DNA of 64,000 nt, taken from sequence record OL960581; one strand, 5' to 3'. Positions 38,522 through 38,977 of the stretch are shown in pieces. Numbering within the stretch: position 1 is the stretch's first letter; each line of letters begins with the position of its first letter. A program made the translations under genes and the position numbers. Below the pieces are notes generated by a model that was given only the letters and a program-made list of their open reading frames with translations, was not told where the DNA came from and ran no database searches. The DNA is from Escherichia phage vB_EcoM_SA20RB.

Positions 38522-38977
38522 TTATTTTAAATCATCTGCCCAATCAAGTTTAAGAGGCTCTTTATATTCACGATCTAATACGACCGGAATTTGTACATCA
38601 CCGCTAAATGATAAGGGCCCAACATTATAAGACAATGTTATATGCGGTGTGTAATCATCAAAATCATGTGTAGCACCTAGTGCCCGCGCATACATGTGTC
38701 GACAGCGCAGATATTCAGAATCTAGCACAAGTACAAGAGTCGATCCATCTTGTGTTTTCCATACTTCTAAATGTCCAGAAGAAGCTACTTCAAAACTTCC
38801 GCTTGATGGAACATACGGAACATTTACTCTTGAATAACATATGGTCGAATGAATTTTTTCTCTAGGAACTGGATTAGGAACACGTAAAGAGCGCTGGAGT
38901 TCTTCCAGCGCATCAAGTGTTAATTCTGAAAACTTAGCTGCTACATAAAGACCCGTTGAAAAGTCTTTAAATTCCAT
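38522..38977 (-). CDS. 57B: 2H-phosphoesterase family protein 57B (Acb1-like cyclic-oligonucleotide phosphodiesterase)
   Basis: 151 aa; two H-x-T/S motifs (HST in [13 protein letters not shown] in TPHITLSYN); directly upstream of 57A. Confidence 0.75.

What the first reader, a model, noticed from the sequence alone, without database searches (positions are those of the whole stretch)
38522..38977. 57B is a 2H-phosphoesterase, consistent with an Acb1-type anti-CBASS nuclease
The product has the two H-x-T/S motifs (HST, HIT) of the 2H phosphoesterase superfamily. T4 57B has been described as Acb1, which degrades cyclic oligonucleotide signals, so this phage probably carries the same counter-defence.
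Basis: partly seen in the sequence, partly recalled or inferred. Interest (0 to 1): 0.45.

Follow-up and report, generated by a model that had tools for sequence, protein, structure and literature searches.

The report
T4 Acb1 anti-CBASS phosphodiesterase gene
This gene encodes a protein identical to phage T4's Acb1, a well-studied enzyme that destroys the cyclic-nucleotide alarm signals of the bacterial CBASS defence, so the finding is correct but already known.

Summary
The ORF at 38522..38977 (minus strand, 151 aa) is real and intact. It contains HST (His43) and HIT (His112). The two motifs alone are weak evidence: 16% of shuffles of this protein also carry two H-x-S/T. Homology settles the question. 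The protein matches Pfam Acb1 (PF23474) end to end at E=2.6e-60. It is 68% identical to the crystallised Acb1 of Erwinia phage FBB1 (7T26/7T27). It is 151/151 identical to residues 2-152 of T4 57B (NP_049750), the protein shown biochemically and genetically to be Acb1 (Hobbs et al. 2022). Against T4, the ORF has 7 synonymous and no non-synonymous DNA differences. The catalytic tetrad, the base-stacking residues, the adenine-reading Glu and the C-terminal lid are all present. The tetrad is invariant in 12 homologues down to 27% identity. Gene order (1, 57A, 57B, ipI) is as in T4. The window is a Tequatrovirus about 96% identical to its nearest records. It also carries Acb2 (vs.4). Verdict: observation confirmed, interpretation supported, already known, low interest. 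One small difference from T4: a G-to-A change removes T4's annotated first ATG, so translation here must start at the conserved second Met, overlapping the 57A stop codon (TAATG).

The parts
38522..38977 (-). acb1 (T4 gene 57B) coding sequence, 151 aa plus stop
   Evidence: ORF; Pfam PF23474 Acb1 E=2.6e-60; 151/151 identical to T4 NP_049750 residues 2-152; 7 synonymous and 0 non-synonymous differences from T4 DNA
38843..38851 (-). First catalytic motif, His43-Ser44-Thr45 (T4 numbering H44/T46)
   Evidence: H and T invariant in 12 homologues; catalytic role from PMC9117128 section 6
38636..38644 (-). Second catalytic motif, His112-Ile113-Thr114 (T4 numbering H113/T115)
38525..38548 (-). C-terminal lid, residues 144-151 (T4 145-152, LDWADDLK), including the stacking Trp146
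   Evidence: Identical to T4; lid closes over the ligand; deleting the lid abolishes T4 Acb1 activation of Panoptes
38977..39219 (-). Gene 57A (tail-fibre assembly chaperone). Its TAA stop overlaps the acb1 ATG by one base (TAATG)
   Evidence: Pfam GP57 E=2.5e-49; junction sequence; the same 57A-57B abutment is annotated in L004, L005, L006, L008, L009 and L011
39219..39932 (-). Gene 1 (dNMP kinase), first gene of the likely 1-57A-57B transcription unit. Its stop also overlaps the 57A ATG (TAATG)
   Evidence: Pfam DNMK E=2e-103; 96% identical to T4 gp1; sequence
39958..39981 (-). Candidate MotA-dependent middle promoter upstream of gene 1: TGCTTCA (39981-39975), 11-nt spacer, TATAAT (39963-39958)
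   Evidence: Read directly. Assignment as a T4 middle promoter is an inference from the known consensus and was not tested
39575..39582 (-). TATAAATA, a late-promoter-like octamer inside gene 1, upstream of 57A and acb1
   Evidence: The window total of 14 such octamers is no more than chance, so this is only a candidate
38162..38449 (-). ipI (internal protein I, inhibitor of the GmrS/GmrD restriction enzyme), the anti-defence gene next downstream
   Evidence: Pfam IPI_T4 E=7.3e-54; adjacency noted for T4 in PMC9117128

Best explanation
This is the acb1 gene (T4 gene 57B) of a T4-like phage (Tequatrovirus). Its product is a small, metal-independent 2H phosphodiesterase. The enzyme clamps a 3'-5'-linked cyclic di- or trinucleotide containing at least one adenosine in a U-shaped pocket: aromatic residues stack on the bases, a Glu reads adenine N6, and a C-terminal lid closes over the ligand. 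The H-x-T/H-x-T tetrad then drives attack of the adenosine 2'-OH on the adjacent phosphodiester, through a cyclic phosphate intermediate, to a linear 3'-phosphate product. This removes the second messenger made by CBASS cyclases before it can activate the cell-killing effector, so the infection completes. The gene is probably transcribed with genes 1 and 57A at middle or late times and translated by coupling to the 57A stop codon. Shown here: sequence identity, motif and residue conservation, and gene context. Taken from published work on the identical T4 protein: chemistry, substrate range and in vivo effect. Inferred: promoter assignment and translational coupling.
For: Full-length Pfam Acb1 match, E=2.6e-60. 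The best PDB match is Acb1 of phage FBB1 (7T26/7T27), E=4e-62, 68% identity. 151/151 identity to T4 57B, with only synonymous DNA differences. H43/T45/H112/T114, Y11, W73, F106, E140 and W146 sit at the positions of T4 H44/T46/H113/T115, Y12, W74, F107, E141 and W147. The tetrad is invariant in 12 homologues from 8 or more phage genera. The order 1-57A-57B-ipI is as in T4. More than 490 phage records encode a protein at least 99% identical. [quoted passage not shown]
Against: Nothing in the sequence argues against it. No enzyme assay exists for this particular phage. The single-sequence AlphaFold model was unusable (pLDDT 37.8), so the fold rests on homology to 7T26. Many GenBank and RefSeq records, and PHROG 755, still label the family 'RNA ligase'.
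Confidence: 0.97

Rival explanations
1. It is an RNA ligase or LigT-type 2'-5' RNA ligase, as many database records label it.
For: RefSeq calls T4 57B and many orthologues 'RNA ligase'. PHROG 755 carries the same label. There is a weak Pfam hit to 2_5_RNA_ligase2.
Against: The 2_5_RNA_ligase2 hit has E=0.11 and 13 bits against a cut-off of 27, and covers only residues 80-122. The Acb1 model scores 202.7 bits. The label predates the biochemistry, and the identical T4 protein is a cyclic-oligonucleotide phosphodiesterase. The resemblance only reflects the shared 2H superfamily.
Confidence: 0.01
2. The enzyme is Acb1, but its main selective value in this phage lies elsewhere than CBASS. Examples are removal of cA3 made by type III CRISPR systems, or a 2',3'-cyclic phosphodiesterase step in RNA repair near the tRNA cluster.
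For: Acb1 cleaves cAAA, and Hobbs et al. suggest possible type III CRISPR evasion. T4 Acb1 belongs to a 2H group with broad activity on CD-NTase, regulatory and type III CRISPR messengers. The reaction passes through a cyclic phosphate. The gene lies about 1.4 kb from the tRNA cluster.
Against: The only demonstrated phenotypes are CBASS-dependent. T4 delta-acb1 grows normally without CBASS. No RNA-repair role has been reported in the papers read.
Confidence: 0.03
3. [quoted passage not shown]
For: Inactivated acb1 alleles exist in nature and arise under Panoptes selection.
Against: The ORF is full length with no stop or frameshift. It has zero amino-acid changes from the active T4 enzyme, and every difference from T4 DNA is synonymous.
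Confidence: 0.005

Closest known systems
Phage T4 Acb1 (gene 57B, NP_049750.1)
   Same: 151/151 amino acids identical, with the same neighbours (1, 57A upstream; ipI downstream) and the same strand arrangement.
   Different: T4's record starts one codon earlier (ATGATGG). Here that triplet is ATA and the 57A stop is TAA instead of TGA, so the protein is 151 aa rather than 152. There are seven synonymous substitutions.
Erwinia phage FBB1 Acb1 (PDB 7T26 apo, 7T27 with 3'3'-cGAMP)
   Same: 68% identity over residues 8-148. The HxT/HxT tetrad, Tyr11, Glu140 and Trp146 are conserved.
   Different: FBB1 has Phe where this protein has Trp73, and Tyr where it has Phe106. Both are conservative aromatic swaps.
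2H PDE-9 (PDB 9Q2G/9Q2Y, deposited as 'Anti-CBASS protein Acb1')
   Same: Same 2H fold group and catalytic histidines, and it degrades 3'3'-cGAMP.
   Different: Only a remote sequence match (E=0.004). Its lid is N-terminal rather than C-terminal. It largely spares 2'3'-c-di-AMP and does not trigger Panoptes, whereas T4 Acb1 does.
LigT / 2'-5' RNA ligase and other cellular 2H phosphoesterases
   Same: Two H-x-T/S motifs.
   Different: No significant profile match (E=0.11, below cut-off). The substrate and biological role differ.

Membership tests
Acb1 (Pfam PF23474) | Full-length profile match above the curated gathering score | tested here: met
   202.7 bits against a cut-off of 27, E=2.6e-60, model positions 1-144 of 144
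Acb1 | Active-site HxT/HxT tetrad (T4 H44, T46, H113, T115) | tested here: met
   H43, T45, H112 and T114 are present and invariant in a 12-sequence alignment down to 27% identity
Acb1 | Nucleobase-stacking aromatics (Y12, W74, F107, W147) and adenine-N6-contacting E141 | tested here: met
   Y11, W73, F106, W146 and E140 sit at the corresponding positions (residue list)
Acb1 | C-terminal lid (T4 residues 145-152) | tested here: met
   Residues 144-151 (LDWADDLK) are identical to T4
Acb1 | Compact 2H phosphoesterase fold | tested here: inconclusive
   Directly, the single-sequence AlphaFold2 model was unusable (pLDDT 37.8). Indirectly, 68% identity over 141 residues to the solved 7T26 chain leaves little doubt
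Acb1 | Cleavage of adenosine-containing 3'-5' cyclic di- and trinucleotides, but not cGG, cA4 or 3'2'-cGAMP | not testable with these tools
   Shown for the identical T4 protein in PMC9117128
Acb1 | Genomic position in T4-like phages: directly after 57A, next to ipI | tested here: met
   a 57A-type chaperone lies upstream in seven other Straboviridae loci
2H phosphoesterase superfamily | Two H-x-T/S motifs | tested here: met
   HST at 43-45 and HIT at 112-114. This feature alone arises by chance in 16% of shuffles
LigT / 2'-5' RNA ligase (Pfam PF13563, PF02834) | Profile match above the gathering score | tested here: not met
   PF13563 gives 13 bits against a cut-off of 27, E=0.11; PF02834 is not reported

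The most novel reading that the evidence does not exclude
Straboviridae genera that share only 39-47% Acb1 identity all keep acb1 immediately downstream of the tail-fibre chaperone gene 57A, in several genera overlapping its stop by 1-4 bases. This could mean Acb1 output is stoichiometrically or temporally tied to late morphogenesis for a reason beyond convenience, or that Acb1 has a second, CBASS-independent substrate. My evidence does not exclude this, but it offers no positive support either.
Probability: 0.04. Interest if true: 0.4.

Novelty: already known. Interest (0 to 1): 0.06.

Why it matters
For annotation, this phage should be labelled as carrying acb1, and acb2 as well, rather than 'RNA ligase' or 'hypothetical protein'. 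For host-range prediction, it should resist CBASS systems that signal with adenosine-containing 3'-5' cyclic di- or trinucleotides. It should be sensitive to Panoptes-type guard systems that detect cyclic-nucleotide depletion. No new biology follows from the finding.

Tried and rejected
Single-sequence AlphaFold2 prediction gave pLDDT 37.8 and pTM 0.30. That is too poor for a fold search, so none was run. I ran no further search on building an alignment, because a 68%-identical crystal structure already exists.

NCBIfam returned no family at E<=1. Rfam gathering-threshold scans of 34000-40200 found only the eight tRNAs and nothing overlapping acb1. tblastn of the protein against the window found no second copy.

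The generic sigma-70 and terminator scan of 37900-40700 found no more sites than shuffles do (9 against 9.8; 1 against 1.2), so it gives no statistical support for any promoter. The TATAAATA count in the window is also at chance level (14 against 10.9).

The short plus-strand ORFs inside the gene (38680-38865 and 38694-38837) were taken to be mechanical by-products of the minus-strand gene and were not examined further.

Full report
**Observation.** The minus strand of 38522..38977 holds an uninterrupted ATG-initiated ORF of 151 codons. Its translation contains exactly two H-x-[S/T] motifs. These are HST at residues 43-45 (window 38851..38843) and HIT at residues 112-114 (38644..38636). Taken alone it is weak: the protein has 5 His and 23 Ser+Thr, and 16% of random shuffles of its residues also show two such motifs.

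**Identity.** The case rests on homology, which is overwhelming.
- Pfam's Acb1 model (PF23474) matches residues 8-149 across its full 144 positions, at 202.7 bits and E=2.6e-60.
- The best solved structure is Acb1 of Erwinia phage FBB1 (7T26/7T27), at E=4e-62 and 68% identity.
- I fetched the T4 reference record NC_000866 and compared directly. The window's protein is 151/151 identical to residues 2-152 of T4 57B, NP_049750.1.
- At the DNA level the ORF differs from T4 at seven positions, all synonymous. This is the signature of purifying selection on a functional gene in a distinct but close relative.
- The window as a whole is a Tequatrovirus about 96% identical to its nearest records over 20 kb.
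- tblastn finds a protein at least 99% identical in 498 phage records, and recognisable homologues in 1,470.

**Function.** NP_049750.1 is the protein that Hobbs et al. (Nature 2022, PMC9117128) purified from T4-infected cells by activity-guided fractionation and named Acb1.
[quoted passage not shown] - The FBB1 structure shows the scissile phosphate over an HxT/HxT tetrad (H44, T46, H113, T115).
- Y12, W74, F107 and W147 stack on the bases, E141 reads adenine N6, and residues 145-152 form a closing lid.
- All of these residues are present here, shifted by one in numbering: H43, T45, H112, T114, Y11, W73, F106, W146, E140, and lid 144-151.
- I aligned 12 homologues: this protein, the FBB1 crystal chain, and ten others, nine from Straboviridae-type genera and one from a 440-kb Salicola phage. 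All four tetrad residues are invariant down to 27% identity.
- In vivo, T4 delta-acb1 loses cGAMP-cleaving activity and suffers a more than 300-fold defect on CBASS hosts only.
- A transposon screen independently found 57B/acb1 dispensable on K-12 but depleted on a CBASS host.

**Context and expression.** Gene order is 3, 1 (dNMP kinase), 57A (tail-fibre chaperone), 57B/acb1, ipI, trna.4-.2, then the tRNA cluster, all on the minus strand exactly as in T4.
- Both the 1/57A and the 57A/57B junctions are TAATG overlaps, which suggests translational coupling. This is an inference.
- Immediately after the gene 3 stop lies TGCTTCA, then 11 nt, then TATAAT (39981-39958). This fits the T4 MotA-dependent middle-promoter consensus as I know it.
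- A TATAAATA octamer lies within gene 1 at 39582-39575.
- These are consensus matches only, and neither generic scan exceeded chance. They do agree with published middle/late expression of 57B and with the onset of cGAMP-cleaving activity about 15 min into T4 infection.
- Downstream, a TTTACA-17-TACTAT site (38508-38480) precedes ipI. ipI itself is a known anti-restriction gene, and Hobbs et al. noted the adjacency as an anti-defence cluster.

**One real difference from T4.** T4 reads ATGATGG at the 57A/57B junction and the record starts 57B at the first ATG. The window reads ATAATGG. This removes that ATG and turns the 57A stop from TGA into TAA. The 456-nt form with a one-base overlap is also what is annotated in phages Ec_O157kw, PECP20 and ValerieMcCarty04. 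The second Met is therefore the conserved start.

**Rivals.**
- The 'RNA ligase' label that RefSeq and PHROG 755 attach to this family is a legacy of 2H-superfamily resemblance. The 2'-5' RNA ligase profile reaches only 13 bits against a cut-off of 27.
- A wider role is compatible with the enzyme's breadth, for example removing cA3 from type III CRISPR signalling. That extends the same mechanism rather than competing with it.
- An inactive allele, as in Bas43, is excluded by the intact and identical sequence.

**Newer literature.** This changes the ecological reading but not the identification. T4 Acb1 also consumes 2'3'-c-di-AMP and cA3. It thereby triggers Panoptes guard systems, and phages escape by mutating acb1. 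A phage with this gene is therefore predicted to resist CBASS but be sensitive to Panoptes.

**What failed.** The single-sequence AlphaFold2 model was unusable (pLDDT 37.8), so I ran no fold search. NCBIfam has no model for the family. Rfam finds nothing over the gene.

**Verdict.** The feature is an already-known gene in a close T4 relative. Interest is low.

Noticed in passing
window 28771-29037 (-): The phage also encodes the second T4 anti-CBASS protein, the Acb2 (Vs.4) cyclic-nucleotide sponge. Pfam Acb2_Tad1_hairpin matches at E=8e-20, and the protein is 87/88 identical to T4 Vs.4, with Asn45 here in place of T4's Asp.
   Followed up: partly
window 29949-31688: T4's denV-ipII-ipIII block is missing. 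Between the vs.8-like ORF and the e lysozyme there is a single 157-aa gene (30632-31105), which matches DUF7412 and PHROG 3155 'internal virion protein'. tblastn with T4 endonuclease V finds nothing anywhere in the 64 kb.
   Followed up: partly
window 38975-38980 (57A/57B junction): A G-to-A change relative to T4 (ATGATGG becomes ATAATGG) removes T4's annotated first Met of 57B and changes the 57A stop from TGA to TAA. Three other phage records (Ec_O157kw, PECP20, ValerieMcCarty04) annotate the same 456-nt form, so T4's Met1 is probably not the conserved start.
   Followed up: partly
window 39219-39932 (-): The dNMP kinase (gp1) is 237 aa, with a 4-residue deletion (EGKE of T4) and five substitutions relative to T4's 241 aa. 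The deletion lies about 30 bases upstream (in the direction of transcription) of the TATAAATA octamer at 39582-39575.
   Followed up: no
window 34910-35383 (-): A 157-aa ORF of unknown function (PHROG 2280, E=2e-59) lies between the e.8-like gene and tRNA-Arg. T4 has only rnaC and rnaD in this interval, which is about 540 bases shorter.
   Followed up: no
window 35772-37130 (-): There are eight tRNA genes in the T4 order, with a segB-like GIY-YIG homing endonuclease (35852-36517) between tRNA-Arg and the next tRNA. ARAGORN calls the CAT-anticodon tRNA at 36559-36630 'Met', whereas T4's record annotates the tRNA at that position as Ile.
   Followed up: no
window 38450-38521: The 57B-ipI spacer has a TTTACA-17-TACTAT promoter-like site preceded by TG (38508-38480). 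It overlaps an inverted repeat, GATGAG...CTCATC. An identical hexamer pair recurs at 38142-38114, downstream of ipI.
   Followed up: no
loci L004-L011: In seven other Straboviridae-type phages the acb1 homologue directly follows a 57A-type chaperone gene. In five of them it overlaps the chaperone's stop by 1-4 bases (1 in three, 4 in Muldoon); in Skers it starts 2 bases after it. This holds even where Acb1 identity has fallen to 39-47%.
   Followed up: partly
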